In this document: in pieces, positions 15,783-43,616 of the stretch
Position numbering within the stretch: the first letter of the stretch is position 1
Layout of the letters: every line of letters starts with the position of its first letter
Source: Atractiella rhizophila
Lineage: Eukaryota
Reading direction: 5' to 3'
Assembly: GCA_021432655.1 (NCBI GenBank)
Contig: MU271230.1
Span: 62,001 to 126,000, forward strand
Length of the DNA stretch: 64,000 bases
Position numbers and translations under genes: made by a program
The notes under the pieces: model-generated
The model's input: the letters and a program-made list of their open reading frames with translations, nothing else
Told to the model about the DNA's origin: nothing
The model's database searches: none

Positions 15783-16149
15783 TGTTAGGGCTGACACTAT
15801 GTGCGGTCGCCAACGGGCGATGCGTCTGTAGTGGAGATAAACCTAAGAGAATACTCTAAGGTCACCTCCACTACTCTCTGATCTATATATACAAGCGGAA
15901 TAACACTGCCACATAGCGTAGAGGAGAGCAGATGAAACATGTAAGAGAACTAAAAGGGAAGTGACAGTGGGATTACGTGGAGTTAATAAGAGGAGGATAG
16001 GCACAATTGGGCTAAGTGGTGATGTAGGTGCAAATGGGCGACGGGAGACGCAGTGGCGAACGGGCGCCGATTCGCAGGGAACGCAAATGGGCGAGAGGAG
16101 ACGCAATCCGGCGAACGGGCGCCGATTTGCGTAAGATGCAAACCTGACA
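15783..16149 (-). repeat. 3' LTR (367 bp)
   Basis: Near-identical to 21828-22231 except for a 37-bp indel and scattered substitutions. Confidence 0.95.
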
Positions 16150-16354
16150 ACACCCCCCAGTTTCTGTGGTTCTTGCAGTAAGCAGAAACTTCTACTTCAT
16201 AAGGTTTGCCAATTTTGCGAAAAGTGCCTGAAGTACCAGCCGCCGCTCGGACAGAGTGAAATTGTTGGAGCAAAGAGACATGGTGTACCTCGCAATTTGA
16301 GGAATTTTTCGAAGTTGACCAGGTGTTGTTTTGGTGTAATAAGTGTCCATTCTG

Positions 16355-16754
16355 CGAAAACGGGCTGGACAACTCACCAACAAACCGGTCGCCGATCTGT
16401 CCGTTGAGGAACAGACCGGCGCCTCACCTAGACCTATGTTCAACAATGTGACTAGGGATTCACCCAGCGAGGCATGTAGAGGAGTAGGACCTCTTAAAGT
16501 GAGGGGGAGGGGACCTCGCGATTGAGGGCAATTTTTCGTAAATGCGACATTGGTGATGGTGCGAGAACGCAATGAGCATTCGTCTTTGACGGGTGACGAA
16601 TGGACTCACCAACGACCAAGTCGCCGACTTGCCCATTGAGGAGCAAGTCGGCGCCTTGCCTTGACCTAAGTCTCAAAGACTAGGATTTCACCCGGCAAGG
16701 CATATAGGGGTGTTGGACCCCTTAAAGTGAGGAAGACCCTTCAGCCCGTTTTCG
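16355..16754 (-). ncRNA. Candidate structured cis-RNA element (two tandem multi-stem domains) at the pol stop / 3' UTR
   Basis: Repeats 16372-16504 and 16604-16732 keep three stems through compensatory changes. Both are enclosed by a 13-bp inverted repeat CGAAAACGGGCTG / CAGCCCGTTTTCG. Confidence 0.65.
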
Positions 16755-19700: not shown

Positions 19701-20517
19701 GTCGTCAAGGAGGAAGCCAGGTTTTGAATTTTTCGTCGTCGAAAATGTCTGCAAAATCGGCGATTTGCGCCGGTATTTCGACAACGCTTTTTGGTCTCAT
19801 CGCCGCTGCGTCTTTCGCCAGTTTCTGCGATTTTGTCATGGCGGCACGTATTGAGGCAGAGGACGATGGAACTTGGTCACGTGTGGTAGACACATCAACC
19901 GCATTGCAACCGGTGGGGCAACGAGAGAACTCAACTTTCCCTGATGCCCAGTTAATCTCTGGGTTGTGGTGTCTTAGCCAGTCATGACCCAGAATCATGT
20001 CGACTGTCCCCAACTCCGCCACAGCGAATTGCCAAACTTCGTGATGGGCGGCGATCGAAATGGGTAAATAAGCGACAGAATGGATGGAACCCCCCTGATT
20101 GAGGGATCCGTCGATATTGTAAACGGGCACTGGGGAAGGGAGTTGAGTGACGGGTAGGTTGTATTCAGAAACGAGTTTCGGAGAAATGAAGGAAGTAGTT
20201 GCCCCGCTGTCGAAGAGCGCGGATGTGGCGTGTCGGCGATGGGAATGTGGGTGATGAAAACCGGTTCTGAGTTTCGTTTTAGAACTGACTAGGGATGCCG
20301 TTGTCGAACGTAGGTGGACTTTGTCGTACATTTTTGCGACATCTGCGCATCTTTGTCTCCAAGATGGAAAACGCAATTTTGGAAATGGGGAGTCATGTTC
20401 GGGAGAAGGGAAATCTGCGCAAAGCGGCGCTTTGTTGGAAGTAATTTTAAATGACGAAAATGAATTGCAAGTCGGCGACGGGGACACTCCTTTCACCCAT
20501 CGCCGTCTCAAAAATCC
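16722..20517 (-). pseudogene. pol: pol: protease, RT, RNase H, integrase, chromodomain
   Basis: PR LFDSGATTSFI; RT LYFGLCNSPATFQ and YIDD; RH EVDASNFATGAVL; IN H..HPG..CYTC, SMDLVGPLP, DRGKEF, GQTER; chromodomain EEWEVEKIVD. In-frame stops at 19705, 17548 and 16923, plus a frameshift at ~17155. Confidence 0.95.
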
Positions 20518-21766
20518 TCCCACAGATCCGATGATTGAGTGACGGTCGTTTTCGGCCACCGGTCGGAGATTTGCGCAGATTGTCGTTCTTATTCTACGAG
20601 ACGAGTGTCGAAATATTCTCCTTGTGCACGAAGGTATTGCTCTTTGCTCATGGATATCTTGCATTCCTTCTCTCTGTGTCCGATCCTTTGGCATCTTCGA
20701 CAACGAGGCGGTCTGAACTTCGTTGCGTCCACCTCCATATCGTCGGGATCTTTAGCTTCATGAGATTGCGAAGCGGCGATGGGTGACAGAGCAGCGCTCA
20801 GTCGGTACAGTGGCGGTCCGCTGTTGTCTTTCTGTTTCGTTGATTTTGAGTGATCCTTCTTTGCTGAAGGTGTATTTTGGGTTCCACTCGTCACCAATGA
20901 GATGCCCCGAAAGAAGCTGGAATGTGCGAATTCTTCTGCGTCGATTCGCCGCGTTTTTTCCTTCCACTCTTCAAGGGACTTGGGGAAATCTCCTTGTGTC
21001 ACTTTAAGGTGTAAGGCAGGATTGAGGCCCCGTTTGAAGAAAAATGTGAGCGCCTCATCATCAAAGTCTGTCTGATTTGCCAACTCTTCAAACTTGATGA
21101 TGTAGGACTCTAGCTTGCCTTTCTGTTGCAGGGAAGACAGTTTCGTTTGCGCAATAAGTTTGTGGTCAGTTTTGCAAAATCGCGATCTGAACTCCGACAA
21201 AAATTGCTCCCACGAAATCTGTTCCTCATTTTCGACAAGTCGGCGCAGTATCCCAGCGGCGAATTTTTCAGCGTCTCCTTCTTTCATATATGATAGAGTA
21301 AATAAGATTTTCGATTTTTCTGAGGGGAACTGTCCTGGGATGGCAGACGTGTAGATGTGGATTTCGCGAAGAAAGGTCGGCGCCGAGCTAGGCACTCCTT
21401 TGAAGATAGAGGGCGTGGCAAGTCTGATTCCTGCATAAGGCGAAACTTGTGCATTTTGAGGTATTAAGTTTGGGGTATTGGGTCTGTTCGCGATAAAAAG
21501 GGGGAGGTGGTCCCACTGTCTCTAGGAGAAGGCAGTCTGGAGTCCAGCAATTGTAAAATTCGGTCGTTTGTGTTCTGGACGTCGGACCTCAGTTGCGCAA
21601 TTTCGTGCGCATTTTGGGAGGTTTGCGCGTTTTGTTGGTTGAAACTTGCTACGAGATCTTGTTCGATTTTTTTGAACTGCTTTTCGGTTGTGAGGTGTAG
21701 AGTTTGGAACATCCTTTCTAAACGATGGATGCGTTCTTCGCTCGTCGGCGATTCGCGCGTTTCCAT
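20508..21766 (-). pseudogene. gag: gag with CCHC zinc knuckle
   Basis: Retrotrans-gag-like region (QQKGKLESYIIKFEELA..FFKRGLN) and CRRCQRIGHREKEC. Frameshift at ~21470 and premature stop at 20589. Confidence 0.9.
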
Positions 21767-21827
21767 ATCTCCTCAAACCTCCGACATTTTTTAAGTTTGG
21801 TTTTGAAATTGAGAGAGAGTATTCTTC

Positions 21828-22231
21828 TGTTAGGGCTGACACTATGTGCGGTCGCCGATAGGCGATGCGTCTGTAGTGGAGATAAACCTAAGAGAATACT
21901 CTGAGGTCACCTCCACTACTCTCTGATCTATATATACAAGCGGAATAACACTGCCACAGAGCGTAGAGGAGAGCAGATGAAACATGTAAGAGAACTAGAA
22001 GGGGAAGTGACAGTGGGATTACGCGGAGTTAATAAGAGGAGGATAGGCACAATTGGGCTAAGTGGTGATGTAGGTGCAAATGGGCGAACGGGCGCCGATT
22101 TGCAACGGGAGATGCAGTGGCGACGGGAGACTCAGTGGCGAACGGGCGCCGATTCGCAGGGAACGTAAATGGGCGAGAGGAGACGCAATCCGGCGAACGG
22201 GCGCCAGTTTGCGTAAGATGCAAACCTGACA
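21828..22231 (-). repeat. 5' LTR (404 bp) with TATATATA box
   Basis: Direct repeat of 15783-16149, upstream of gag. Confidence 0.95.
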
Positions 22232-22267: not shown

Positions 22268-25200
22268 ATGAGATCCAGCTCAATGCACCCTAGTTCGACA
22301 TCCCATCTCATCCCTCTCCATGACAGCCTGAGATCCACTAGGAACTCTTCATCGCCATATCCCTCCATTCGTGCTCAAGCCAGGAAGAAAAAGGCGGAGG
22401 AGGATGGGCTACGATTAGCAACACGTGCTGCTTTACGCGTTGATTTCATCGCAACTTCCGGCATCTCATTGAAGCATACACCCGCAAGGATCCTGTGCCT
22501 TCACGAAGGGTTCCTTACGCATCGAAAGTCCGACTCAAGATACAACAGCCTCCAGCATCTGAGCCTCAGCATTCCCGGCTTGAAATGGATATCTCAACAA
22601 CAGACCTCGATGCAATTCCTGCAGGCAACATGAACGATGGAAGTGATGAAGAGATGGAAGTCAATGGCGATGAGATGATTGTTGGAGAGAGCATAGAGCT
22701 GAGAGAGGAGGTGGAAGTTATTGCATCGATTGCTGAAGATGAGCAGACGTATCATAATCCAAATCCTGATGAAGCCCCCCAACCTGTTGGAGCTGTAGAG
22801 CTCACACACGCGACCCCACTATGGTAAGGATTCTCGCATGTGATGAAATGGCATTAATATTTGTTTTTGTGTTGCAGCGACATTCGTGATATCCTCATGC
22901 CACTTTACGACGACAACTCCGAGAATCTTTCATCTGTTCCTCCAACACATCCAGATGATATCCCCAGGCTTAGTGACAAGCGGCAACTTACTTTGGACAA
23001 GTTCCAAATCTGGCACCGAAACAACGAGAAAGAGGCAAGCTATGAAGGCCATCGTCAAAACTGGACTTTGCGTAAGCATGAAATGCATACCCTTCCTGAG
23101 GCAAAAAAGATGCTTGCTGAGCTCAGCGGCTTGGCCGGAGAGTGGTTGCCTATGTGTGGAGCCTCTTGCAGCTCCTATCTTGACAAGTATGAGAAGTTGG
23201 ATGGGCAAGTTGGTTGTTTTCGAATAGCAAAGAAGGTGCTAAAGAAAGACTTAGATGTCCACATTCGTGCAAAATTAACGGCGCCATTGTACCATGCAAC
23301 CGATCTCGCTTTTCTCTTTCCTTTGGACGATCTGCAATACCAGGTGATTCATCAAGAACAAAGAAGAAGAGTGAAAAGCATTTTCTCTTCTACAATCCCC
23401 TCCATCAAATTAAGGCGAAGTTCCCGGCTCCACAGAATGCTGAGATGATGGGGTACTTTGGAAGGAAGCTGGGAGAGACACTGGCAAAAACAGAGCATTT
23501 ATTAGACAAACTGCGCCGTGGATACACTTACGATGACTTCCACCACGGGCACAGCAGTCCAAGCCCTTGCCAACGATAACATTGGCTTTATGGAAGACGA
23601 ACGAGAATCAGTCTTTATTGCTTCGACAGACGGTGCAGCCATCCATGCCACCCGCGACTCTAACATGTGGTTCATCATCCTTTCGTTTCTAGGCTTCGAC
23701 ACGGGCGTACGAGCGAAACGTCATCATACATATTTCACCTTAGGCGTTCCTGGTCCCAACAATCCCGTTGACATCCAATCGTTCTTCATTCCATTCTATA
23801 AAGCTATGGCAAAGTTGAGTGGAGGATTGTGGATGTGGGATGCTGGATATCGAAGGTGGTTTGTTTGGAAAGGATGGCTGCTCAACAAGCTCGGGAAGAA
23901 TCTCACACTGCTTCCTTAAAACTCACATTGAAAGACACATAGGTGACATGCTTGGCTCTGCAAAGGCTAATGGCTGCACGGGCCATCAAGGCAAGTGTGG
24001 CTGTCGCTTTTGCAAGCTTATCGGTCGGCTTCTTGGCCAACACTACTATTACCCATGTATATCGCTTCCTCAGGATGATGGTACACTACCTGATTATCGC
24101 CTAGTCGCCTACGATCCTCTAAACCTTCTCATTCGCACAACGACAGAATACACACAAATAGCAAAGGACCTAGCCCTTGCAACGACCCAAAAAGCTCGTT
24201 CAGAGATAGCTCGTGACAGTGGCATCATTTCCATCATGCCCATATCTGGTCTCGCTACATTTCGTGATCCTTGGACCATTTTTGCTGGGGATCTTGCTCA
24301 TCTCCATTGGAAGAATGATGCTGAACTCATTTTCGATTCTACCATGGGGATCAACAAGCAGGAGTCGCTTCCTAAACCATGGCATCCGACACAGCAAATT
24401 CGTGAGGAATTTGGGAACCCATGATCGAATGCTCCAAAATTGATATTCCCTACGCCTTCTCTCAGGCGGCTCTTCGAAACATATACCGATTTCGAAACAC
24501 TCAGTACAAGATGCACGAATAGTGGGACATTTACGACTGGCTGCTTCTTCCTAGCCTTTTCCTCCTTGGATTTCCTCTCAACGTCCTAAACGTAATTGAC
24601 TCTTTTGTCTGTGGCTGCCTGCTCGCACAGCAGCACCAGATTACAGAAGAGCAGTGGCTCAAAATTCGAGAATATTTTGCCAATTTCATGACAGGCTGGG
24701 AGAAGGTATTTGTACATGGGGATCGGTCTCGACTTGTTCGAATACCCATGTGCATCCGCCATCTCTTGCACGTTGCCGATTGGATTCTCTGGTGGGGCCC
24801 CCCGAATTCTCTACTCGCAATTTCCAATGGAGGGAATGATTGGTTATCTTAAAAAGTGTATCAACCAGGACAACAAGTATCAAGAGAATCTCCTTAACCA
24901 AGCACTTTTGCAAGAGCAGCTGAACATCGTTGATGTTCTCTATCCAGATGAAAATCCCATTCATGGCAAGTCTGCCCCTCGGTTCTGTCAGTTGTCCTTA
25001 TATCCTCTCACAACTCTGTCTCTTCACCTCGATGGACATCTATTCCTGTCACCAAGTTAGTCAAACTGCGAGGCAGCGATTAATTCGTAGAATGGATGCA
25101 TGAGATCAATTTGATTCAATCCTACAGTGCCTCTCATGGCAAGAATCTTGACGGAATAGATATGGAGAAGACTGTTGCAAAATGGGAGTACTGGGGCCGG

Positions 25201-25992
25201 TGTTCTTTGGCTAATGGGGATTATTCGCTCTCAGAGACTCGAACGGTCATGGAAATTCGAAGCAAGAAGGGCTCGCAGATTTCAGGTCAGATTTAGATTA
25301 GTACACTGATATGAGCTACAAACTCCTCTGACATGACGGATAGGGCATTGATGATGCTGGAGACATCTTCTATAGTGAGGCTGTTGTCTACATTCGAATT
25401 CCAGAGTCCTTCTTCAACCCAACAGCAGATGCAATGGCCGACAGGCTCTTCGCGCTCACTCAGCTTTTCAACAAACGAGCAAACCCCTTACAGAGTGAGA
25501 TCCTCTGCCAATGGAGCGGCGAGTATCGGCTTGTGATGGGGCCACGGGAGCATAAACGCACCCTCCTTTCTCTTGCTGGTATGAAGTCATATATCCTTGG
25601 TTCCTTTTTCTTAATACTCAGCTTTTATGCTATAAAATAACTTCCCCTGCAAGTGTGAGACCCAGACTTTTGATTGGTCTCGCACCTTGCAGGTATGTAT
25701 TTCATTCTCATATAGAACATACAATAATAGAGTTTTGATTGGTCTCGCACCTTGCAGTCCCGCTCACCCCACCGCTCGTAATCTTTATCAGCTTGTACCT
25801 CTGGACCAGATCCACCGTTTGATCGGGATTTTTCAAGCTGAAGACGGCAACGGTACAGCATTCGTGTGGATTCTTTTTCGCCACCACTCGGATACAGTCA
25901 TTGACACAGCTCTCGAACCGGATGCAGACGACTCTCTGGTTGAAGGAGATGCAGACCAGAATGAGGAAATGTATCTTCCAGACTCGATATAA
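22268..25992 (+). pseudogene. CACTA/EnSpm (Tnp2/Transposase_21-like) transposase, fragmented, with introns
   Basis: Motifs STDGA, PGPNNPVDIQSF, GDMLGSAK..GHQGKCGCRFC, GDLAHL and SQFPMEGMIGYLK occur in order across several frames. TIRs were not identified and the 5' boundary is approximate. Confidence 0.7.
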
Positions 25993-26502
25993 GGCTCTCA
26001 AGCGTTGATGGGCTCGTATTATTCTAGTACATTTCACCTATTCCCATTACATTGTTGCGCTATCTATGTTTGTAGATCAATTTAGCGGTTCTAATTTTGC
26101 TAGTTACAATATGAAATTTCGATATTTTAGTAGATATATACTGTCTAACATGGATTTTGTGGTACTGCAATAAGTTGACCTCCGTGCACTTTCCTCTCCA
26201 GCTCTCTCTATTTCAACACACAACATACCCACCAATCCATTCTTCCACCATTGGCCTTCTTTCTTCAAGTCCTTCCACAGGAGCAATGCCTTTTGCATGG
26301 CGGAGGCAGAGTGGTGATGGAGAGGGTTGACTCAACTCTGCAATTGAGGGTTGTGTTTCCCCGACGTCCTTTAATTCTGCTGCTGATGTTGTCTCTAGTT
26401 CGTGTTTCTCGCGACCATTACAGTTGTCATTGAACCACGAGCGTTCAGCACTTCCCAGGCACTAGATACACTACTCCATCCCCTCCACAGCACTCAACTC
26501 GC

Positions 26503-28647
26503 TGTCAGGTTTGCATCTTACGCAAATCGGCGCCCGTTCGCCGGATTGCGTCTCCTATCGCCCATTTGCGTTCCCTGCGAATCGGCGCCCGTGCGCCACT
26601 GCGTCTCCCGTCGCCTATTTGCACGCAGTGCAAATCGGCGCCCGTTCGCCCATTTGCGCCTACCGACCTCAAACACGCACCATACTCCTCCCCTCCGTTT
26701 ACTACACCTGTTACAACGCCTCCATTAGGGTCTGTATTGCCTACTACTCTCGTCTTCGTACTCTTGGCACCGGTAGTTGTTACTCCTCTCGACCTGCACA
26801 GCCTAGCCCGGTGAAAACCTACTCCCTGTATTTAACTATACTTGGTGTCTATCGGGTTTTGGAGTAGACAGGTAGGTAAAAGCCTCTCCCGTTACGATTC
26901 TAGTCAGTATATTCATTTTCTTTTCCAAAAGTCTAACTTTTCCTGTTTGTTCTAGAGAAAAGAAACTAGTAGGCTATCGGGTGAGTTGGTTGAGAAGACC
27001 TTAGCAAAAGGACTCTTCTATTTTTCTCCCCCCTCTCTCGACGGTGAGCGTCATTGTGTAAGCTATTCCCAATGGTCAAGTTCGAACAGACTGAAACGAG
27101 CTATTTACCGAGAAGAGAGTCGTCCGGGTTAATGCGCTGCCTGAGGATAGAAGGCCGGCGGAGGGTCGAGGTTTGGGAAGAGTAGGTATAAACGGTCTAG
27201 TAGGGTATTTTAAGGCATAAAAGAGTACCGGGGGAGCTCTTCTAGTTTTATCCTCACTTGTAAACAGGCTAACTTTCGAAAACGTGCGAACCCTAGGTTT
27301 CCTAAACGAAACTTTGAGGCTTAGAGACAAGGTACGGCGAAGTAGTTTGCCATTATGGTCGGAAAAGGGACCGCCGGAGGGGTGTTAGAAGAAGTGTTGG
27401 TCCATATTTGGGGAGGATACTTCTCCTTCGGGACTTAGAGGCTGGGTGGCTTAGGTCGAATAGTCAGGACGAAGGAGAGGGAAATGAGTTGTTCGCGACT
27501 ACAACTACTGAAAGATGGGCCAAATTGGGGAGGTTCTGTGGCCATGGATTCTCATGGTATTAAGTACTTCCATTTTGGAGGTAAAGGTAAACCTATCCTT
27601 ATGGCACTTCGTTCAATAGATATCCTTTACCGCGTGACACCCAGGAACCAAGAGAGCCGGAGAAGAACCTCGAAGGTTATTTAGAGGTGACGAAGGTGTT
27701 TCAGGAAGAGGGAAAATCGGTTGTGTAGAAAAAATGATTCCAGGAAGAAGAAGAAACCACCGTAAGCCTCCTCCGACCTCGACACCCCTGTGCCAACCTT
27801 CAACGCAACCATTCCTGCACAGCTGGGTTCGTGCACTGGTCTTTTCGCACACCTTAACGACTGAACTTTGAATTTAACGCCTAAAACGCGTTGTACGATT
27901 GTTACCTCGTGGTCTGAAATTGTTCACCAGAGAGTAGTTCAACATCCGACTAGACTCGTTTTGAATCTGTCACCTTATTGATCTACAAAGAGAACAAATA
28001 AGGGTTTTTTTTAGTGTCATTAGTCTATAGGAATGACTCTTTATGTATTTAAGTAATGACGATATAAAAGCTTCTATAGAGTTTCCCTCAAGGTGGTTAA
28101 ACAACGACTTATCTCTCCTTTTATACGCGTGTACGTTCCTCTAAGACTTATGTTTAAAAGATTTCCCTAACCTAAACTAAACCCGCTGAAATAATATACC
28201 ACAATTTCTAGACCCATACAATTCAAAGACCCATGGTGTATCATCAAGTGCTTAAACGGGACTCCTTCTTCTCTCTGTAACTAACTTCGGCGAAAGCAAG
28301 GCGGAGACTTCTCTGATACACTACCCGACCACCTGCGGTTTCCTCCCTTCTCCCTCAACTAGGGGACCTTGAAACGTCCCGCCCACAATCCCGACTGTGA
28401 CATCACCTCTATTTTGGATTCACGTACTATACTGTACTTCTGATTGGACATCACCTCTATTTGGATTCTCTTATGAGACTCCAGTGGAGGTGATGAGAGA
28501 CTAGATATATATGTTCGCCTTATTGTGACGGTGTCTCGCATCTCCTCTCGTCTACTTTGTACATTCTCTTGATCTTCCCCTTCACTGTCACCCTAATGCG
28601 CCTCAATTATTCTCCTCCTATCCGTGTTAACCCGATTCACCACTACA
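26503..28647 (+). repeat. Solo LTR of the same chromovirus family, split by the mirrored segment (26503-26661 plus 28647 back to 28385)
   Basis: TGTCAGGTTTGC start. Reading 28647 leftwards continues the LTR to ...GCCCTAACA. Flanks CTCGC / CCCGC form a near-TSD. Confidence 0.85.
26662..28647. other. Mirrored segment 1 (reversed, not complemented)
   Basis: 28449-28647 is the base-by-base complement of LTR 21873-22071 (one extra T). Flipping the segment restores LTR continuity. It abuts the 253-N gap at 28648-28900. Confidence 0.95.
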
Positions 28648-28900
28648 NNNNNNNNNNNNNNNNNNNNNNNNNNNNNNNNNNNNNNNNNNNNNNNNNNNNN
28701 NNNNNNNNNNNNNNNNNNNNNNNNNNNNNNNNNNNNNNNNNNNNNNNNNNNNNNNNNNNNNNNNNNNNNNNNNNNNNNNNNNNNNNNNNNNNNNNNNNNN
28801 NNNNNNNNNNNNNNNNNNNNNNNNNNNNNNNNNNNNNNNNNNNNNNNNNNNNNNNNNNNNNNNNNNNNNNNNNNNNNNNNNNNNNNNNNNNNNNNNNNNN

Positions 28901-29835
28901 CTCGCGAAAGCCGCTCCAGTCCTCCTTATGTCAACCCATCGACTCACACACAACTTCAGACGGATTTAGAAGACCCCCTCGCTAACAGCTCTGACCCACT
29001 CTCTGACGACGACTTCAATGACTCTCTCTCAGATTCTGGGGAACCTCCAACAATTGAGGAGGGCTTTCAGCTCATTGATGCCGAAACCTGCCTTCTACGC
29101 ATGAAAGAGGTGCCTCCTCTGACGCTTAATTCGACACAGTTACAGGCTGCTCAACTTCCACTAGAACAAGACATCTCCACATCTTCTTCTGCTCCGGTTC
29201 TCCCAACTCCAACGAGACTCCCTTCATCCGACACTCTAACAGTGACCCTGCATACTCCGATCAACCCAAATCACTTCTATCCAAAGAAGCCACTAACCAT
29301 CTTCCGCAATCGAGAGGGGCAGAGGATCCACGTCTCTGCCAAAAGCCCATCGATGTTGTTATTTCGTGCCTTGTCCGCAATGGATACAGTGCGGAGTGAA
29401 GATCAACATCGAGAAGGGGCACTAAGAGCATCAGTGGAGATGCTGACAAGGGAGAATGGACAGTTGCGAAATGCCCTGGAGTCAAAGAAGAAACCGGGAA
29501 AGAAAACAGAATTGACGACGACAGCACGGTTGTTGAGTGGCGTAGAAGCCTATGAGAAGATGTTGGAGAATGAGCAAGCAGCTGAAGAAAAAACAGCCGG
29601 GGAAGCACGCAAGAAAGTGGAGACTGCAAGAAAGAGAGCAGAGACTGCCAAGAAGAAAGAGGAGAAGGAACAAGAGAAAAAAGTGAAGGCAAATATGAGG
29701 GAAATGAAGCGGAGGGAGAAGGAGGAAGCTGAGAAGAACAAACCTCCACACAAAAGAGGTGGAGGTACTAATAGACTACAGCTCCCCGTAATTCACCATT
29801 CCGATTACTTTATCTCCTCCTCCGCTCCTTGCTAA
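28901..29835 (+). CDS. Probable C-terminal, KE-rich part of the pogo transposase
   Basis: Open frame after the gap, inside the TIRs. ENGQLRNAL..KKK..ARLLS plus a KE-rich tail resembles fungal Fot1-type C-termini. Confidence 0.6.
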
Positions 29836-30828
29836 CAATTAGTGCAGCAGCCATCATCACCTCATACAACGGAAGCGGTCCCTTCAACCTCCAGCCTGCC
29901 TTCTCTTTTCTTCGGACCTCAGCAGTCACTTGCAGCAAGCTTTCCACAACTACACTCTGGGCAACCCCAAAATCTGTCATTCATGGGACACAATCCTGTT
30001 TTCAGTGACCAATTAGCCACAGAACAACTACAAGCCATTCATACAAAGCAATGGGAGAGTCTCAACCAATGCATGGATCTATTTAGTACGTTACATTTGA
30101 TACTAACAGAGTGTTAAGACAAACTGAGCACAGTGACACAACCTGATCCTTCAGACCATATTTTTGCATCAAATACCTCACGAAAGCGGCCAATGTCACC
30201 AGTCGAGGTTGATACATCACTCCCCACCCCAAAACGCCCATTCCTGCCACATCACCGCACCGAATCGATTCAGGATCTACACTCACAGGTTCTATCAATC
30301 CCACACCCTCAACAGCAAAGACCCAGTCTCCTAGCACCGCAATATCATTATACTATCGATCCAATTGACAATCCTCTCCAGAACTAGCTTCAAAACGCAA
30401 CAAAATATGCACGAGGACCAACGGAGGCAAGTAAGGCAGCTGGCAGCAGGTGCAAAGGAAGGGACCTAATTTCTCGTTCATTTGCTTTAATATCGGAAGC
30501 CAAGTACTTACACCTTTATAATACTATTTAATCATTGATAAACCAAGGATAAACCCAGTTTAAAGGTCGCGTTGGTCTTCAATAATTTTGCTTGATCAGG
30601 AAAGTGCGCGATTGTCATCAAGAGTCATCGCGACCATTTGAGCAAGGATGGCATTTAACACCATCAAAAAAGAGCCTCTTGCTCGTAGCTCTACTGCTGA
30701 ACTAAAAGACGTGTTTCCTATGAAGTAATTGTTGAATGGATAATTGAGACCCTTAATGAGGTATTCCGGGTATACCAAACCCCTGACAATCCGAGGTAGG
30801 CACAAAATCACGCGATGTTAAAGATCTA

Positions 30829-33800
30829 TAGTGTTGGTCGCCTACACACATCAACTGTGGCAAACCTTAAAATTGATCTTTCAGTTTTGACCCAATGGAC
30901 TATCTGTCTGTGGAATATGCTCTAAATGGGCCCTAGATTAAAACCTACAGACAACTTTTTGATACCTCTTCTTCCTGAGGAGCAATATTTTTTTTGTTCC
31001 CTGATTTGGAAAATGACCCCTTGTGTGTGCCATTGTACGATAAGCAGGCTACTGTACGCCTCGTTGTACGTCACATGATCTACTGTACGTTTTGTACAAG
31101 TACCGGAACCCTACTTTGCGTATTTCCGAACTGTGTTTCAAGAAGGAAGAAGCTTCATTTTCTTCTGTCCGTTCGCCTCTCGCTCCATCTCCAGCTTCAT
31201 GGGCAAGCGAAGGAAAGGGCGAGGGCGTCCTTCTCATGCGAAAGAAGCGAGGTACGCCGCCCTTCGTGAAGCTCGCAAGCAGGCAACTGCAGCCAGACTC
31301 GCCTCGCTTGCGTACACTCCAGCTCCAGCTTCCTCTTCTGGCTTCGACCGTCGTCACCGTGGATTCAGGATCTGATGATGAAGGACTTAAACTGCCCTCG
31401 TGATAGTGAGGAAGGAGACCACGATGAAGACAGCGATGAAGGCAAGCTGGATCTGGGTAGCGATGACGAAGAGGCTCCGGATAGTGCAGAACGATGAGAA
31501 GTTCTGCTGAAGGCCAGGGACGACCTCCCAGGATCTGTTTACGATGAACTTATGCGGTGGGGAGCGCATGCAAATGCTTGGGTCAGAGGGGAGAAGCAAA
31601 TTGGGAAGTCAAGGTCAAAAGGGTACAGGGATGGAGCGACTTCGACAGCGCTGACTTCTGTCTGGCGCAGAAATAAGTTTAATGAGGCTAGGCAACGGTG
31701 AGTCTTTACATAATGCTTTCTCTGAGATTACTGACTTCATTGCAGTGGATGTGAGCACATTGACAACATTTTCAAGCCGCTCCCTCGGAAGTCACGTCCA
31801 CACGTCCACAGGCAGCATCCTCACCCGAGAATCACACGCTGCCAGACGACATCCTCGTTGTGCTGACTGACGACGAGGACGAAGAGGACAAGGACCAGGA
31901 TGGCCCCCTTCTGTGTCTTCCATCCCTTCGGCGTACACCCCCTTTGCTGCCAACTCCCACTCCTCAGATATGTCACTTGCACCCACTAACATCCATCCGC
32001 CACAGCCTGCCACTCCACCACCTGCCTCTCCTCCGCCTATCACTCTGCCTCTGACTCCTCCTGTCACTCCACCTGTCCCTCCGCCTGTCCCTCCACCTGT
32101 TCCGCTGCCTGCCACTCCATCATCTGCCACTTCCCCACCTACTCCTTCACCAGGCACTCCTCCCCCTCCTCTGCCCACCACTTTGCCTGTGATGGGGAAG
32201 ACCAAGAGAACACGAGCGGAAGAGGAACCTACCGACGAATCTGCCCCGCCGCTCAAGCGAATACGTCCTACGAAGGAGGAGCGCACTCAGCACAGGCAGG
32301 AAACAGCTAGAAGAGTATGGGATAAGAGCTGCTCAGATTGAGAAGCTGTTGCAGAGGAATCAGTTTCTGACACACCTTCAGGGACGGAGGGTTCGAGCAT
32401 TGGAAACTTATTATAACCTGTTAAGACTGGGTACAAGAGGGAAGCTGGAAGCATCGCAGATTGCGGCAGCATCCCACCGATTCGGCTTGGTTTTCGGAGC
32501 ACGGTGCGTTCGTTTATGGGCCAACCATTATGAGGAGACAGGGGAGCTTCCAGTGTCAAATAGAGGTCAGTCCATTTGCTTATTGTCAAGTAAGTGCTCA
32601 TGATGCATTGCAGGGAGGCATGTAAAAACATATACATTGCTCAATGATCCAGAAATCTGTGGATATCTCCGTTCCTGGCTCCGTACAAATAAGTGGTCAA
32701 TGGATCCAACGAAGCTCGCTCAATTCCATGTCAACACGATGGTCCCACTTGCTCTGGAAAAGTATGCGAGGCAAACAATCCGAGAGGAGATTCCCACAAG
32801 GGTTGAAGAATTATCTTGAGGTGAAGCTATTTCCTCGTATCCGATTTAAGCCGGGACCAAAGGGTATCTCACTGAGGACAGCCAGGAGATGGTTGAAGAA
32901 AGAAGGCTTTAAATGGACCTATTACAAGAAGGGCCTCTACTTTGAGTACGTCTGCTGCTGCCCTTACCTTGCGGAGTATGAGTGTGACCTGACTTTCTGT
33001 ACATGTGCAGCGGTCATGAGCGGCCAGATGTTGTCAAGTATCGGCAAGAGGTTTTCATTCCCCAGTTTGAAAGCTATATTCCACGCCTCCGTCAATATGA
33101 AGTTAGAAATGTGATGAAAGAAGTTGTTAAGGATCTTGCCCCTGAAACCCGCCGAGTTGTCCTTGTCTCTCATGACGAGTGGACTTGCAATGCACATGAT
33201 GGCAAACACTTCTCATGGGTGCTTGACGGGCAAAACAACCTTCGAAAGAAAGGACAAGGTCGTGGTCTACACCGGTCAGACTTCATTTGCTCAACCCAAG
33301 GATGGCTGGAGGAAGCTGGGGAGCAGTTGGAGTACGGGAAGAATCATGAAGGATATTAGAATGCTGAGAAGCTGGCTGAGCAGGTCGGCATTCTTTCCTT
33401 GGGGTTGTGCTCTTGTCAATTGATATGTTCAGGTGGAAAAAAAGTTCATCCCGGTTTTTGAACGGTTACATCCGGGAGACCAGGCACTTGTCATTTTCGA
33501 TAACTCAACCGGCCATGCAGCTCTCGCAAAGGATGCCCTGAACACCAAGCATATGAATGTTAATTCTGGTGTGTACTTTCTTTATCAGTCTTATTTTATG
33601 GCATTGCTTATCTTTTACCAGGTGGGGCACAAGCAAGGCTGAGGGACGGCTGGTGGGTGGATGCAACCGGGAGAAGACATGTCCAGCAGATGGTTTATGA
33701 TGATGGAACTCCGAAAGGGATGAGGGTTGTGTTGGAGGAGAGAAACTTGTGGTTGCCGGGACTGCGGGGGAAGTGTAAGAAAGTTGCTGACCATCGTGAC

Positions 33801-34545
33801 GATCACAAGTGTTGCGCCGGTAAGCTTCTTCCTTTGATTTTGAAAGTTGACTTACGTCTGTGTTAGAGAGATGGCTTGCAGCACAGCCAGATTTCCTGAA
33901 GCAGAAGCCATTTGTGCAAGAGATTCTGGAGCGGAGAGGCCATTGTGCAATTTTCCTCCCAAAATTTCATTGCGAATTAAATTTTATTGAGTTTTTCTGG
34001 GGAGCAATGAAACGATATATCAGAGGTAATGGCAGGCTTCCGCTTATCTGCTTTGTGACTGACATATGGAACAGAGAATTGCGACTATACCTTTGAAGGA
34101 TTGAAGCGAACGGTTCCAGAAGGTTTGCGGTCAGTACCATTGTCAACAATCCGTAAATTTGAGCACCGGAGCCACCGCTGGATTCAAGCCTACAAGGAGG
34201 GGAAGAGTGTGATTGATGCTGAATATCAACAGAAGCAGTACTCTTCACATTGCAGGATTCCTGAGGCTCGAGCAGCTCGGGAAGATCAATAATTTACAAT
34301 AAAGGAGATATCTTTGCGTCATAATTAGAGTCTGATAATTTCCTTATATACAAATAGTAAATTCATCTAACCCACTCTTCTTGACCGCGACAACCTTGTT
34401 CCTCAGCCTTATCAAGTCTGGCCAAGTCTGGCCAACGACAAGTGAGCAACAAAAAAAAAAATTAGAAATTTGGAATGACCCATCATCAACTGTCATCAAC
34501 GAGTCATGGTTTGCCACAGTGGTTGCGACTAGCCGACCTTCACCA
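30829..34545 (+). mobile_element. Tc1/IS630-like DNA transposon copy 1, nested in the pogo element
   Basis: TA at 30827-28 and 34546-47. Imperfect ~38-bp TIRs ending ACTGTGGCAAACC. Both boundaries match copy 2. Confidence 0.88.
31199..34292 (+). pseudogene. Spliced DDE transposase (Tc1/IS630-like)
   Basis: ISLRTARRWLKKEGF, VSHDE, FDNSTGH and LPKFHCELNFIEFFWGAMKRY motifs with multiple GT-AG introns. Frameshift at ~32795 and TAG at 33357. Confidence 0.85.
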
Positions 34546-35095
34546 TATGTAAAATTCCGACCTTAGGTGTTAAGTTTCCGGGTACCACATAGTAGCTCGA
34601 CTTGCTATGGTTCTGTGCGGGAATTCACGAGTATGGAACTGGGTACGGATGTGCCCTCTTTCCTGCATCCATCCCTGATCCATCCACGCAACAACTTGAT
34701 CAATCTAGGTCCGTCCACTTGCTCCGCTTCAATCGTTTTGTTCATTAATTAAAGAAGGTCAATTCTCGATACCCACCACAAACCAGACGTTCGTCCTGCT
34801 TCATGTACAGTATAAAGGCAAGCGACGTCCTTCAATCCCCAGCCACGAAACCATACATCGATCGTGCCTTTTGCCTAGATTCTCCAGCTACATCTTGGTA
34901 GTCTTACACGTAACTGTTTGAAGCCTTGGATCATTTTTTCGTCAATCTTCGTTACAGTTTCGATCACGTCGAGATCCGAAAGGTGAGGAGGGAGGATGGT
35001 GCGAGCTGATAATGTGACTCAGGCATGACTTCATCTCCATTTTTGGCTTTCTTCTTCTCATCTAACGTGGTTTATGGGCTGTCTCTTCTCAAAAG

Positions 35096-36305
35096 ATGAC
35101 TGAGCAAACATCTCGCCTATCTCATGGCACTCAGGAACCAAAATTGACGGCACTGGTCCATGTCATCACCCCAAATAACGATCCCGATTCGATTCACCTC
35201 TCCATTCTTCCGTCTTTCTTATCTTGCCTACCTTCGTCGATTCACACGGTCCGGATTTCGTTTGCCTTGTCGCGACCAAATATGAGGTTGAACCTTGCAG
35301 CGATGTCACCAAAATTGTGTTATTTATCACTTGAACGGGTCAACAATGCGGCGCACAAGGAAGGTGCAATCAATCTTCATATTACCGTCCATCCCAAAAA
35401 TGTCTCAGTAACCTTTTTGGATATTGAGGGGCATGCATCGACTGTCGAAAGAGATGTCAAATCAGAGGTCGACACACTTGCTTCAAATGGCAATCCATTT
35501 ATCCGTGCATTTCCTTGCTTTCGCGAGAATGCTATATTCGTCCCCTTAGCTTCATTCTCCCAACATGAAGGACGCTTCCACCCCATCGATGAAGACGAAT
35601 CATCGTCCCCCCCATTCCTCCCGACCGCTAGCATCATCCAACTCTCTGTCCCACCTCCAGAAGTTATTCCATGCACAATTTCGAGCTTGCCTGTGGAGCT
35701 CCTCTGTCTCATATTTAGTTTCTCCGACGTCGCTTTCACCGTCTCGGAAGTGTGCGAGCTTTGGAGGAAGGTTTCAGCACCTTATTGGAGCGAACCTGAT
35801 TCTGTATCGGGCAAGTACACTCGATTGAACCGCTATCCTGGTGCTGGACGACTATGGGACACCCTGGAGTTTTACGAAAGTATGGATGTTGGGATGGTGA
35901 AGGAGATCATTGCTGGCTCGCCGAATATCACGACGGTGTGGATGCATGCATTTTGGAATGAAGAGGAGGCGAAGACTGTGTTGAATGCAATCGAAGGTAA
36001 ATGGCTGGATGAAGTCAGCTTTGGAAGTGGTTCAAGAAAGTGGAGGAGGGACGAGATCGAAAACTTTATGCGGATGAAGGGTGATGGGATCAGACGGCTC
36101 CAAGCTCACGACGTGGAGGAATCTCCCGCTTCAGCCTCAGCAGGCCTTCACTTATGCTCTCGCCTCGAATACCTTGACCTCTACAAATACCCGCCCCTTC
36201 CATCGCTCTGCCTCCCACACACCGTCAAGCACCTCCAGCTCTCCAATATGTGTCCACTCCCTTCTTCCATCTCAGAGTCCCCTCTGCCGCCTCTTCTGCA
36301 AGACC
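35096..36305 (+). CDS. F-box/LRR family copy 4, runs into assembly gap
   Basis: Aligns to copies 1-3. Open until the 25-N gap at 36306-36330. Confidence 0.75.
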
Positions 36306-36330
36306 NNNNNNNNNNNNNNNNNNNNNNNNN

Positions 36331-39030
36331 GGCGGGAACAGGAAAGAAAGTTTCCAACAAAACGGGCAGTTCGTGGGTACTCTTCACAAACGGTAGTACA
36401 CGTAACGTTCAGCTGAGCAGTACTCTCTGTTCCTGTTGAGCCGCCCAAAGTCCCCGTTCTAGGAATTGTTGAAGAAAGTAGTGTAAAGGTTGAAGTATAA
36501 CTACCTTCGGCACCTTATATCGAAAGTTTGACCCCTTACTTTTGGAGAACGGCTATGAACTGTTGTAGACCGGCGAGTACTGGCGACGTGTACATGTCTT
36601 TTCAGTCCAGTGTGAGTATGAGGTGTTCCATTCCCGTCGTCGTCTGCATGAGTTTCATCTCCGGGAAGAACATTATCCAGGTAAATTTCGGAAGAAAGAA
36701 GTTGGTAGAGGACCGACAGGAGTCACTCTATGGGAAACCAGGGCCGAATTTAGCCTATGCTCCTTTATCGAGGTGGAGTTCTATTAAGAAGTTGGGAACG
36801 CCTTAGAGGAGAGCCTAACAAACGGAGCGTATGAAAAGGTCGCGTTCACCCTGGTAGTACAACTGTACCTTAACTCGCTCGAAGCAACCTAGGTAACTGG
36901 TGAATAAACATGCCTCGGTCCTTGCCTCTATAGGTGTCTAAAGACCTAGTAACTCGTTACATATACAAAAATGTACGGAGGGACGTTACGTAGTACTCGT
37001 GTATGAACTGTTATTCGTTTACCTGACTGGAGATAAACTGTGACCTTCGAGGGGACAGAGGAGTATTACCAACCGGGTATTTGCTTACGTGGCACGAGGC
37101 TTTCGGTTCGGTTTAGCCACCCTACGACGGCGTTAGACGCTACGAAGGTCGAAGGGAGAACATGGGTCAGAATTGTCCAATATTATTCAAAGGTTGCGAG
37201 CTTGGGAGGCAGGGACTTCCACACAGTCTTTGACTAAGGAGACGTTGTCGAAGAGTTAGACTCGTCGAGAATAGGGTATGAGAAGATCGACAAAGGAGGA
37301 CACGACTCACGCGAGGAGGAAGCATCCTGCATAAGCGAACTCGCCGCCCCGTCTAAGCAGCCATCCAAGGAGAAGGCGAGCACAAGAGAACCAGAAGGGG
37401 TAGTGTCCGTTTCACCACCCGTCTCCTCCCCTCCTCACGGACCACCTCCTCATCCACCCCTTCACCGTCTACTACCTCACCGTCTACTACCTCACCGTCT
37501 ACTACCTCGTCGTCGCCTTGTCCACCTCGCTGTCCGTCTCCCTGTCCACCTCACTGTCCGCCTCAGTCTCCGTCTCACTATCCGCCTCCTCTCCGTCCAC
37601 CACCTCACCGTCCGACACCGCTTACCTACAATCACCCACGTTCACTGTATAGACTCCTCACCCTCAACCGTCGTTTCCCCCACATACGGCTTCCCTACCT
37701 TCTGTGTCTTCCCCCCGGTAGGACCAGGAACAGGAGAAGCAGGAGCAGCAGTCAGTCGTGTTGCTCCTACAGCAGGCCGTCGCACACTAAGAGCCCACTC
37801 CTACGACGGACACCTGCACTGAAGGCTCCCTCGCCGAACTTTTACAACAGTTACGCGAGTGTAGGTGACGTTACTTCAGTCATTAGAGTCTCTTTCGTAA
37901 TACATTTCTGAGTGGCAACGGATCGGAGTAATTTGAATAAAGACGCGGTCTGTCTTCAGTCGCGACAGCTTCAGCGAGGTAGGGATATGGGAAAACTGGA
38001 ACTGAAGGGTTAAACGAAGAGGGGAGACTGGGTTCGTAAACGTACGTGAGGGGTGGCGTATTCAAGTAGCATTTGTCTAGGACCCTCCAGCAGGGACCGG
38101 AAGTCGTCTTGAAGAGTAGCAAGACGTGATAGGCCTCGGAGAAGCAGTAGCGATGGGTCTAGGTCGAGCGGAAGTAGCGACAGAAGTAGCACCAGAGGAA
38201 GGAGTGATAGGAGAAGGAGGTTGAGAGAAAGGAGCGATAGGAGAAGGAGCCTAAGAGAGTCTTGGTAGTTGGAAAGGAGAAGGGGTTCGCTCGGCCTTAG
38301 CCCGCCTCCTCTTTGGTTGCCCTATCCCAGTTCGAGCTTCGGTAACGCACTCCTCATGTGTGACAAGTCATCCATAGTCAACCCAAGGATAACTATTCGT
38401 CTATTGAGTGCTCCTGTCAAATTCAGGAAGTAGTAGTCTACTAGGACTTAGGTGCCACTGCTGCAGCTTCGGTCTTCTCCTTCGACCTCGACCTCACATG
38501 CGTTCGCTCCGCTCAGACCGACGTCAACGGACGAACGCTCGAAGTGCTTCCCGCCGTATGGAGTGAAGAAAGCGTACTCTTCCTGCGGGAGTGGGAAAGG
38601 AAGCGAACGGGTACTTCGACCTCTACCTCGCTCTCCGTTTTGCCTGTCTTCTTTTACTTCGAAGAAGGAAGAACTTTGTGTCAAGCTTTTTATGCGTTTT
38701 ATCCCAAGGCCATGAACATGTTTTGCATGTCATCTAGTACACTGCATGTTGCTCCGCATGTCATCGGGACGAATAGCATGTTACCGTGTGTGTTCCCCAG
38801 TAAAAGGTTTAGTCCCTTGTTTTTTTTATAACGAGGAGTCCTTCTTCTCCATAGTTTTTCAACAGACATGCAAAATTAGATCCCGGGTAAATCTCGTATA
38901 AGGTGTCTGTCTATCAGGTAACCCAGTTTTGACTTTCTAGTTAAAATTCCAAACGGTGTCAACTACACACATCCCGCTGGTTGTGATATCCGTAACAACG
39001 TTGGCTTCCCCAAAATAGCCCTGCTCATAT
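36331..39030. other. Mirrored segment 2 (reversed, not complemented)
   Basis: Read right-to-left, 38990 to 36331 matches 30826-33263. The reversed end CAAGGGCGG joins GGTCTACACCGG at 39031 in frame (QGRGLHR). Confidence 0.95.
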
Positions 39031-40314
39031 GGTCTACACCGGTCAGACTTCATTTGCTCAACCCAAGGATGGCTGGAGGAAGCTGGGGAGCAGTTGGAGT
39101 ACGGGAAGAATCATGAAGGATATTGGAATGCTGAGAAGCTGGCTGAGCAAGTCGGCATTCTTTCCTTGGGGTTGTGCTCTTGTCAATTGATATGTTCAGG
39201 TTGAAAAAAAGTTCATCCCGGTTTTTGAACGGTTACATTCGGAAGACCAGACACTTGTCATTTTCGATAACTTAACCGGCCATGCAGCTCTCGCAAAGGA
39301 TGCCCTGAACACCAAGCATATGAATGTTAGTTCTGGTGCGTACTTTCTTTACCAGTCTTATTTTATGGCATTGCTTATCTTTTACCAGGTGGGGCACAAG
39401 CAAGGCTGAGGGACTGCTGGTGGGTGGATGCAACCGGGAGAAGACATGTCCAGCGGATGGTTTATGATGATGGAACTAAGGGATGAGGGTTGTGTTGGAG
39501 GAGAGAAACTTGTGGTTGCCGGGACTGCGGGGGAAGTGTAAGAAAGTTGCTGACCATCGTGATGATCACAAGTGTTGTGCCGGTAAGCTTCTTCCTTTGA
39601 TTTTGAAAGTTGACTTACGTCTGTGTTAGAGAGATGGCTTGCAGCACAGCCAGCTCTCCTGAAGCAGAAGCCATTTGTGCAAGAGATTCTGGAGCGGAGA
39701 GGCCATTGTGCAATTTTCCTCCCAAAATTTCATTGCGAATTAAATTTTGTTGAGTTTTTCTGGGGAGCAATGAAACGATATATCAGAGGTAATGGCAGGC
39801 TTCCACTTATCTGCTTTGTGACTGACATATGGAACAGAGAATTGCGACTATACCTTTGAAGGATTGAAGTGAACGGTTCCAGAAGGTTTGCGGTCAGTAC
39901 CATTGTCAACAATCCGTAAATTTGAGCACCGGAGCCACCGCTGGATTCAAGCCTACAAGGAGGGGAAGAGTGTGATTGATTGATACTGAATATCAACAGA
40001 AGCAGTACTCTTCACATCGCAGGATTCCTGAGGCTCGAGCAGCTCGGGAAGATCAATAATTTACAATAAAGCAGATATATTTGCGTCATAATTAGAGTCC
40101 CATAATTTCCTTATATACAAATAGTAAATTCATCTAACCCACTCTTCTTGACCGCGACAACCTCGTTCCTCAGCCTTATCAAGTCTGGCCAATTCTGGCC
40201 AACGACAAGTGAGCAACAAAAAAAAAATAATTAGAAATTTGGAATGACTCGTCATCAACTGTCATCAACGAGTCATGGTTTGCCACAGTGGTTGCGACTA
40301 GCCGACCTTCACCA
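36331..40314 (+). mobile_element. Tc1/IS630-like transposon copy 2 (5' part mirrored)
   Basis: 39031-40316 is highly similar to 33264-34547. The left TIR reads leftwards from 38987 and TA is present at both ends. Confidence 0.88.
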
Positions 40315-40621
40315 TACGCAGAAGAATACGGAAGGTCATCGCAGAAATTGTCATCAAATTGCAGCATTGTGCTCACTTCGCATATGTTCTGGTTATTTTA
40401 TTGCCAATAAACTAGCAAGGCGGCATGAAATTGATTGTGGATAATTTTAGGTCTCTTCTGCAAAGTTACCAATGCACACCACGGGTGCAACAAAGTCTCA
40501 CAGAGATCGGTGGCAAAACCGGCCATTTCTAAGCCTAGTAGACGACTTTTATTTAGGGAGGGAGGGCGAAGATGGGACTGAACTGCTTGAATTTCCGATA
40601 CAACATCCAGGCACTGTGTTT

Positions 40622-43076: not shown

Positions 43077-43616
43077 CTTTGTGTTACCCAGAAACTTAAC
43101 GGACGAGCCCCGAAATTCAAATAGATCTTTAAAAGCACCATTTCGTTCCTATTGTGCATACCAGCAGCACAATAACACCTGGAAAACCTCAGTGCAAGTC
43201 GAGACTAGCATACAAGTTTTTAGAAACGAGGATGTCTCTCTGCTGAGATAAAACACTTCTGGATCCGAACTAGCGGCACTCAAGTTCTGCATTTTAATAG
43301 CTGGCCTTCAGTCATTCGTAAATGGATGGGGAAGTCACTTCCAGAAACGCTGATTTTGTCATTTCTCTAGAATTTGAGCGGGAAAATGTGTTGAGCGCGA
43401 ATATTCCCTTGGGAAAACACTTGATAAGACAACTCCCTATTTTCATTAATATCAAGAAGGGAATGCAGCTGAGTATCTGCATGTTGGGAGACAAGAGTTA
43501 CATATTGAGTCAGGAGATTCTAAATCCAGAATATCTAAGGGATTGATGAGAATTTAAATGACTTTAATATATGGTGTTAAAGTTCTGGTTGTATTAAAGT
43601 TCTGGGTATCACATAG
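43077..43616 (-). mobile_element. Non-autonomous pogo-family element (MITE, ~540 bp)
   Basis: Ends CTTTGTGTTACCCAGAAACTTAAC and TTAAAGTTCTGGGTATCACATAG resemble the pogo TIRs and subterminal sequence. TA on the left, CA on the right, no transposase. Confidence 0.75.

What the first reader, a model, noticed from the sequence alone, without database searches (positions are those of the whole stretch)
26662..28647. 2-kb segment written backwards (mirror, not reverse complement) hides a pogo transposase
Seen: the segment makes sense only when the + strand letters are read right to left. In that direction it completes the LTR interrupted at 26661 (GCGCCT|ACATCACCAC), continues as F-box-unit upstream sequence homologous to 7640-7750, then gives TA + TIR. 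A Fot1/pogo transposase follows (WYYRLMKRH..NMDEKG..IECVTASG..NGWTD..DGHGSH..HTTHKLQP) and ends exactly at 26662. No six-frame ORF track can show this. Established: templated synthesis is antiparallel and does not produce kb-scale mirror copies. Inference: a gap-filling software error, since the segment abuts an N gap and has homopolymer-type indels.
Basis: partly seen in the sequence, partly recalled or inferred. Interest (0 to 1): 0.75.

Follow-up and report, generated by a model that had tools for sequence, protein, structure and literature searches.

The report
Backwards-written gap fills hide transposon
A 2-kb stretch beside an assembly gap really is written back to front without being complemented, hiding an ordinary pogo-like jumping gene, and the same fault recurs beside many other gaps of this fungal assembly, so it is a software error and not biology.

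Summary
Confirmed, and an artefact. Read right to left, 26662-28647 completes a solo LTR (201 of 201 nt identical to the LTR at 21871-22071). It then holds the first half of a pogo-like transposon, 97.5% identical over 1,587 nt to a normal copy on another contig. As written, none of six frames matches a transposase.

With both pieces at the first gap turned round, normal copies have 245-248 nt where the record has 253 N, and the element closes with TIRs and TA duplications.

The fault is genome-wide. All 316 mirror-type matches in 835 kb have a partner near an N gap; 381 of 677 ordinary matches do not. All 11 testable junctions are reversed in place. The best explanation is a strand-handling error in long-read gap extension; the tool (PBJelly-like) is inferred, not shown.

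The element is DD38D, so pogo-like but not strict Fot. The scan noted mirror blocks three times before, on other pieces of this genome. No raw reads were available.

The parts
26662..28647 (.). Mirror block 1 (1,986 nt): true + strand letters written in reverse order, not complemented; extension of the left contig into the gap
26498..26502 (+). Left 5-bp target duplication of the solo LTR (CTCGC)
26503..26661 (-). Normally written part (159 nt) of a solo LTR of the family at 15783-16149 and 21828-22231
28385..28647 (.). Rest of the solo LTR (263 nt), readable only right to left
   Evidence: 201/201 identity to rc 21871-22071; LTR end
28380..28384 (.). Right target duplication of the LTR, read reversed (CCCGC, 4 of 5 match to CTCGC)
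28245..28364 (.). Upstream sequence of an F-box-like repeat unit, reversed; paralog of 7638-7753
   Evidence: 78.7% over 122 nt; empty-site comparison
28218..28244 (.). TA target duplication (28244-28243) and left 25-bp TIR (28242->28218) of the pogo-like element, reversed
26662..27764 (.). 5' part of the DDE_1 transposase gene, reversed (ATG at 27764; first two catalytic Asp present, third lies in the N gap); frame broken by 1-nt indels relative to L008
28648..28900 (.). Residual gap of 253 N; normal copies have 245-248 nt here
28901..28963 (.).
   Evidence: 110/110 identity to L008 across the junction once reversed; best boundary 28963
28964..30826 (+). Normally written 3' part of the same pogo-like element
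   Evidence: 97.8% over 1,349 nt (28964-30312) to L008
30827..34547 (+). A second, 3.7-kb TIR element nested inside the pogo-like element
   Evidence: 40-nt inverted ends; copies elsewhere; one X1 contig joins 30826 to 34546
34568..34594 (+). Right TIR (34568-34592; 24 of 25 nt match the left TIR) and TA duplication (34593-34594)
35066..36304 (+). F-box-like repeat-unit reading frame following the insertion site
   Evidence: PF12937 E 9.4e-5, 22.6 bits, below the 24.3 cut-off; paralog 7750-9487
36306..36330 (.). Gap of exactly 25 N
36331..39029 (.).
   Evidence: 97.3% over 2,660 nt to L101 (G000:C12), which then continues into 39031 without a break; 96.5% to 31402-33262
39030..40316 (+). Normally written 3' third of that element
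   Evidence: 97% to 33263-34547 and to L101

Best explanation
The block is not in the organism's DNA as written. A gap-filling step extended contigs into scaffold gaps with a long-read consensus. Where the two extensions did not meet, it pasted each one beside the shortened N run, and for some extensions it got the strand flip half right. Either a minus-strand consensus was complemented but not reversed, or a plus-strand one was reversed but not complemented; both give the true + strand letters in reverse order. SHOWN: reversal in place, exact boundaries, gap adjacency, gap-length accounting and recurrence across the assembly. INFERRED: long-read origin and a software cause. GUESSED: the tool is PBJelly or works like it. 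The real locus is ordinary: solo LTR, short spacer, TA, a pogo-like DD38D transposon carrying a nested 3.7-kb TIR element, TA, F-box-like unit.
For: (1) Reversed block = normal copy L008 at 97.5% over 1,587 nt; as-written frames have no hit. (2) A second reversed piece sits on the other side of the same gap, and the gap's 253 N match 247, 247, 245 and 248 nt in four normal copies. (3) Once reversed, the LTR regains a 4-of-5 target duplication, and the transposon regains paired TIRs and TA duplications at a site that is empty in the paralog at 7735-7770. (4) 11 of 11 other contigs with as-written matches show, by eye on 200-nt bins, a mirror-scoring block reaching an N run; 7 of those 11 gaps are exactly 25 N. 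(5) In 600 kb from five contigs picked by number, 2 blocks were found, both at gaps, among 12 gaps, and none away from gaps. (6) 0 of 316 mirror-type matches lack a partner within 7.1 kb of an N run, against 381 of 677 ordinary matches; 29% of the DNA is that close to a gap. (7) 11 of 54 gap sides show reverse-in-place continuity and 0 of 54 complement-in-place. (8) 9 one-base indels in the reversed half against 0 in the normal half of the same element, p 0.004. (9) Two X2 contigs run left from 28964 with 29 of 30 letters equal to the reversed reading of 28901-28930. (10) PBJelly defines gaps as 25 or more N and, when extensions do not meet, adds them and shrinks the gap (PMC3504050, passages).
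Against: No raw reads of this assembly's strain were available; X1 and X2 are contigs of one sample and differ from the window at many sites. The supporting loose ends lie in multi-copy elements, so they show the family's orientation, not this locus. Block 2 shows no indel excess (6 in 2,660 against 2 in 1,286 nt, p 0.49). Over all pairs the excess is modest (3.2 against 1.9 one-base indels per kb). Most gaps have no detectable block (10 of 12 in the 600-kb sample), and 3 of the 4 gaps of exactly 25 N there have none. The 7.1-kb limit was set after seeing the longest block (7,038 nt), and the 316 matches are not independent. No paper describing such a bug was found.
Confidence: 0.96

Rival explanations
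1. The same artefact arose later, in format conversion, scaffold re-orientation or the scan's own data handling, for example a whole-scaffold reverse complement whose table skipped lower-case gap-fill letters.
For: Blocks coincide with gap-fill sequence, which some tools mark by case (own knowledge). The window and G000 share one source, so they cannot tell deposit from later handling.
Against: A skipped complement during whole-scaffold flipping leaves letters complemented at their own positions. That geometry was seen at 0 of 54 gap sides, while reversal in place was seen at 11. Within one scaffold some sides are reversed and others are not.
Confidence: 0.03
2. The mirror copies are real DNA, made by parallel-stranded templated synthesis or an unknown 3'-to-5' re-reading process, and gaps sit beside them because such DNA is hard to assemble.
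For: The sequence as deposited. The idea of 'parallel biosynthesis' exists in print: Tchurikov 1992, Genetica 87:113, seen only as a reference-list entry in PMC5829573. No raw reads were tested.
Against: Each block replaces, in place, exactly the sequence expected there and starts at the gap edge; there is no donor copy plus insertion and no junction scar. Two independent reversals flank one gap and leave the right gap length. Blocks cut through LTRs and genes at arbitrary points. None lies away from gaps. All known polymerases pair antiparallel (own knowledge).
Confidence: 0.005
3. An ordinary inversion, or a chance match caused by low complexity or approximate palindromes.
For: Reversed sequences can give short chance matches (own knowledge).
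Against: An inversion gives a reverse complement, and all six as-written frames lack transposase hits. The matches are 97.5% over 1,587 nt and 100% over 201 nt.
Confidence: 0.005

Closest known systems
Flank extension in long-read gap filling (PBJelly; English et al. 2012, PMC3504050, passages read)
   Same: Gaps defined as 25 or more N; contig ends extended into the gap and the gap shortened when extensions do not meet; 'overfilled' gaps. This matches blocks of 63 to 7,038 nt on either side of shortened gaps.
   Different: The passages read describe no reversed output. That overfilled gaps are written as exactly 25 N is my recollection, not in those passages. The tool used for this assembly is not established.
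pogo superfamily, Fot/Fot-like family (Gao et al. 2020, PMC7386202, passages read)
   Same: DDE_1 transposase, TIRs of 40 bp or less, TA duplication, one or two ORFs, fungal host; about 2.6 kb without the nested element, within the 1.2-5.2 kb range.
   Different: DD38D against DD35D in almost all Fot. TA instead of the commoner TAA (341 of 385 Fot). No Pfam DNA-binding domain detected. In this record the 5' half is written backwards.
Synthetic reversed locus HPRT1R (Camellato et al. 2024, PMC11006607, passages read)
   Same: Sequence reversed but not complemented keeps GC content and homopolymers but loses coding information, which is why no ORF track shows the transposase.
   Different: HPRT1R was designed on purpose and built as DNA; here it is an unintended string operation in an assembly file.

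Membership tests
Gap-extension artefact (PBJelly-type) | Altered sequence confined to gap flanks | tested here: met
   0 of 316 mirror-type matches away from gaps; 2 of 2 blocks at gaps in 600 kb; 11 of 11 contigs
Gap-extension artefact (PBJelly-type) | Residual N run equals the sequence still missing | tested here: met
   253 N against 245-248 nt in 4 of 4 normal copies; tested at one gap only
Gap-extension artefact (PBJelly-type) | Long-read error profile (1-nt indel excess) | tested here: inconclusive
   Block 1: 9 against 0, p 0.004; block 2: 6 against 2, p 0.49; overall 3.2 against 1.9 per kb
Gap-extension artefact (PBJelly-type) | Raw reads of the same strain contradict the deposited junctions | not testable with these tools
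   Only contigs of one sample were served
Gap-extension artefact (PBJelly-type) | The named program reproduces the reversal | not testable with these tools
   No source code or run available
pogo superfamily | DDE_1 (PF03184) transposase | tested here: met
   Normal twin L008: E 9.5e-17, 61.6 bits; 97.5% identical to the reversed block
pogo superfamily | TIRs and TA-type target duplication | tested here: met
   25-bp TIRs, 24 of 25 match; TA at both ends; empty paralogous site
pogo superfamily | DDD triad with spacing in DD29-56D | tested here: met
   DD38D in L008, L016, L025, L009 and L014; 4 of 9 loci examined gave no match to the pattern. The third Asp of the window copy lies in the N gap.
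pogo superfamily | N-terminal CENP-B/HTH_Tnp_Tc5/HTH_psq-type DNA-binding domain | tested here: inconclusive
   No such Pfam family at E<=0.001 in the 409-aa L008 ORF; no structure prediction run
pogo superfamily | Phylogenetic placement in the pogo clade | not tested
   No tree built
Fot/Fot-like family (Fot1) | DD35D spacing | tested here: not met
   38 residues between the second and third Asp against DD35D (PMC7386202)

The most novel reading that the evidence does not exclude
This is an undocumented, systematic strand-handling fault of a widely used long-read gap filler. It has left reversed-not-complemented DNA (about 1.7% of the 577 kb of non-N bases sampled here) beside gaps in many public assemblies of that era, silently hiding genes from every annotation. 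A simple screen (assembly against its own reversed string, or a k-mer direction score) would find and repair it. Biological mirror copying would be far more novel but is practically excluded (about 0.005).
Probability: 0.5. Interest if true: 0.35.

Novelty: not a real feature. Interest (0 to 1): 0.12.

Why it matters
Biologically it does not matter: the hidden element is an ordinary multi-copy pogo-like transposon. For data quality it does. About 1.7% of the non-N bases sampled (9,736 of 577,290) are unreadable to six-frame searches, gene finders and read mappers, so genes beside gaps are missing from annotation and can be taken for orphan or strain-specific DNA. Other findings of this scan that touch N gaps in this genome should be checked by reversing the flank. 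If the fault is general to a common tool, many hybrid assemblies need the same screen.

Tried and rejected
Read laying (window 24000-39200, contigs of X1 and X2, one sample and one study). The 3 bins wholly inside block 1 have depth 0 in both runs. Of the 4 bins wholly inside block 2, all are 0 except one bin at 7.9 in X1. All other bins have cover. A part without cover is no proof with contig data, so this is not counted as evidence. No listed contig bridges either block; only 12 of 267 loose-end rows and 15 of 23 joint rows were shown. No RNA holder was listed.

Inversion (reverse complement): rejected, no hit in six frames. Complement-in-place geometry: 0 of 54 gap sides. Block 2 as written has no match elsewhere in G000 (1 of 1 match is itself).

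The Markov/Viterbi scan misses short blocks: it did not call the 63-nt piece and clipped block 1 to 26687-28377, so 2 of 12 gaps is a lower bound. The right flank of the C200 gap scores -7.7 (8 of 903 background windows are below -5) and has no reversed-read homolog; it is left undecided.

Testing whether the left flank of the 25-N gap continues into block 2 via paralogs gave no junction-spanning alignment. Looking for the right TIR in 30200-30900 failed; it lies at 34568. Pfam found nothing in 32988-33356 or 28966-29832, so the nested element is unclassified.

Literature searches for a described bug found none: PBJelly or 'reversed but not complemented'; PBJelly + reversed + bug + complement (two of six hits checked by passage); six phrasings of reversed-not-complemented; PBJelly + mirror + artifact + gap; non-complemented / reversed sequence / assembly error / gap filling. 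All were listings only unless stated. Passages of 10.1101/2022.08.07.503107 and PMC6733440 held nothing on it. No supplements were read. Software issue trackers are not searchable here, so 'not in print' holds only for this library. Two word look-ups of earlier findings returned nothing.

Full report
Observation. The window has two N runs, 28648-28900 (253 N) and 36306-36330 (25 N). Searching the reversed window against the window gives long, high-identity matches only for 26662-28647 and 36331-38990. A Markov direction score is -5 bits or lower in 16 of 256 bins, all overlapping those two stretches. The LTR that starts at 26503 breaks off at 26661 as written. It continues without a mismatch for 201 nt when the block is read from 28647 leftwards.

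What the block holds. A DDE_1 search of the own genome gave 26 matches, 25 fetched. The reversed block matches L008 (C248) at 97.5% over 1,587 nt, and L025 and L016 at 95-96%. The six as-written frames give no tblastn hit at E<=1e-4. The L008 ORF is a DDE_1 transposase (E 9.5e-17). Read reversed, the block is: 263 nt of LTR, a 4-of-5 target duplication (CTCGC/CCCGC), about 135 nt of F-box-unit upstream sequence, TA, a 25-bp TIR, and the transposase gene from 27764 down to 26662.

The locus beyond the gap. The sequence from 28964 continues the same element (97.8% to L008 over 1,349 nt). The 63 nt at 28901-28963 do not match as written, but match L008 110 of 110 across the junction when reversed, so a second reversed piece flanks the same gap. 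Between the two pieces, four normal copies have 247, 247, 245 and 248 nt; the record has 253 N. The right TIR is at 34568-34592, followed by TA, and the paralog at 7735-7770 shows the empty site with a single TA. A 3.7-kb TIR element (30827-34547) is nested inside. The block therefore belongs at this locus, in place, and only its letter order is wrong.

A third block. 36331-39029 lies right of the 25-N gap. Reversed, it matches a normal copy on C12 (L101) at 97.3% over 2,660 nt, and that copy continues into 39031 without a break.

Genome-wide pattern. Block 1 as written matches 14 places on 11 other contigs (lower bound). In 11 of 11 fetched stretches, the match lies in a mirror-scoring block that reaches an N run, judged by eye on 200-nt bins; 7 of these gaps are exactly 25 N. 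In 600 kb from five contigs picked by number (C1, C10, C100, C200, C300), there are 12 gaps and 2 blocks, both at gaps, together 9,736 of 577,290 non-N bases. Their gap sides score -25.7, -36.1 and -33.4 against a background minimum of -13.1 in 903 windows, and both were confirmed by homology of the reversed reading. Across 835 kb, 0 of 316 mirror-type matches lack a partner within 7.1 kb of an N run. For ordinary matches it is 381 of 677, and 29% of the DNA is that near a gap. The limit was set after seeing the longest block, and the matches are not independent. Of 54 gap sides, 11 show a normal homolog running from the flank straight into the reversed reading that starts at the gap edge; none shows complement-in-place.

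Error profile and reads. Against L008, the reversed half of the element has 28 substitutions and 9 one-base indels in 1,585 nt. The normal half has 30 and 0 in 1,349 nt (p 0.004). All 7 insertions extend a neighbouring base, a loose criterion. Block 2 shows no excess (p 0.49). Only contigs of one public sample were served. Two X2 contigs run left from 28964 with 29 of 30 letters equal to the reversed reading of 28901-28930, and LTR contigs in both runs continue with the reversed reading's first letters. These are multi-copy elements, so this shows the family's orientation, not this locus.

Mechanism. Shown: extensions of contig ends into gaps are written as the true + strand in reverse order, on left sides, right sides or both. 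Inferred: a gap filler built a long-read consensus per flank, shortened the gap by its length, and applied only half of a reverse-complement. The sequence cannot tell 'complemented, not reversed' from 'reversed, not complemented'. PBJelly's described flank extension and 25-N gap definition fit (PMC3504050, passages); that it writes overfilled gaps as 25 N is recalled, and the tool is not established. Most gaps (10 of 12 in the sample) have no detectable block, which fits a fault that depends on strand or on whether an extension was made. A later conversion error would give complement-in-place, which was not seen. Real parallel-strand copying (Tchurikov 1992, seen only as a citation) would need two scarless reversals that flank one gap and conserve its length, and no block away from gaps.

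Comparison with known families. The element works like a pogo-superfamily cut-and-paste transposon: DDE_1, TIRs, TA and a spacing within DD29-56D are met; the DNA-binding domain is inconclusive and no tree was built. It is not filed as Fot, because its spacing is DD38D against DD35D. Reversed-not-complemented DNA is otherwise known as a designed information-free control (HPRT1R, PMC11006607, passages). Five literature searches found no description of such a gap-filling fault; supplements and issue trackers were not seen. Three earlier notes of this scan report mirror blocks on other pieces of this genome; I reached the reading before seeing them and did not test their loci.

Verdict. It is not a real feature of the organism. 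Interest 0.12; the value lies in a cheap screen for a fault that hides genes.

Noticed in passing
window 28901-28963 and 36331-39029: Two further reversed blocks, not in the finding: 63 nt right of the 253-N gap and 2,699 nt right of the 25-N gap.
   Followed up: yes
G000:C1:66627-74483 (L046-L047) and G000:C10:127662-129534: Reversed blocks of about 0.8 kb + 7.0 kb on both sides of a 25-N gap, and of about 1.8 kb beside a 902-N gap. The 7-kb block has stop-free frames of 462 and 506 aa only when reversed, so it hides unannotated coding sequence.
   Followed up: partly
window 30827-34547: Unclassified 3.7-kb TIR element nested in the pogo-like element. One X1 contig joins 30826 to 34546, which suggests an empty site in that sample or at another copy. 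The copies at 36331-40316 and on C12 carry an extra 197 nt.
   Followed up: partly
L008, L009, L014, L016, L025: A multi-copy pogo-like group with DD38D spacing, not the DD35D of Fot; it may be an unnamed fungal subgroup.
   Followed up: partly
window 28385-28450 (reversed reading) and LTRs at 15783-16149, 21828-22231: The LTR has a short GT...AG segment whose end repeats the sequence before it, as in the 'LTR mini-intron' notes for this genome; here it is hidden inside the mirror block.
   Followed up: no
window 1-10066 and 34591-36301: Four diverged (about 73-77%) copies of an F-box-like gene unit; the copy at 35066 has a sub-threshold F-box-like hit.
   Followed up: partly
window 15783-22231: An LTR element bounded by two LTRs of the same family as the solo LTR in the finding; a related copy lies in L038 (96% over 3.4 kb).
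   Followed up: no
window 43512-43616: A normal-orientation piece 79% like the left end of the pogo-like element, probably the end of a related copy.
   Followed up: no
G000:C200:45554 onward (L094): Gap flank with a mildly mirror-like score (-7.7) and no homolog to test; possibly a short reversed block.
   Followed up: partly
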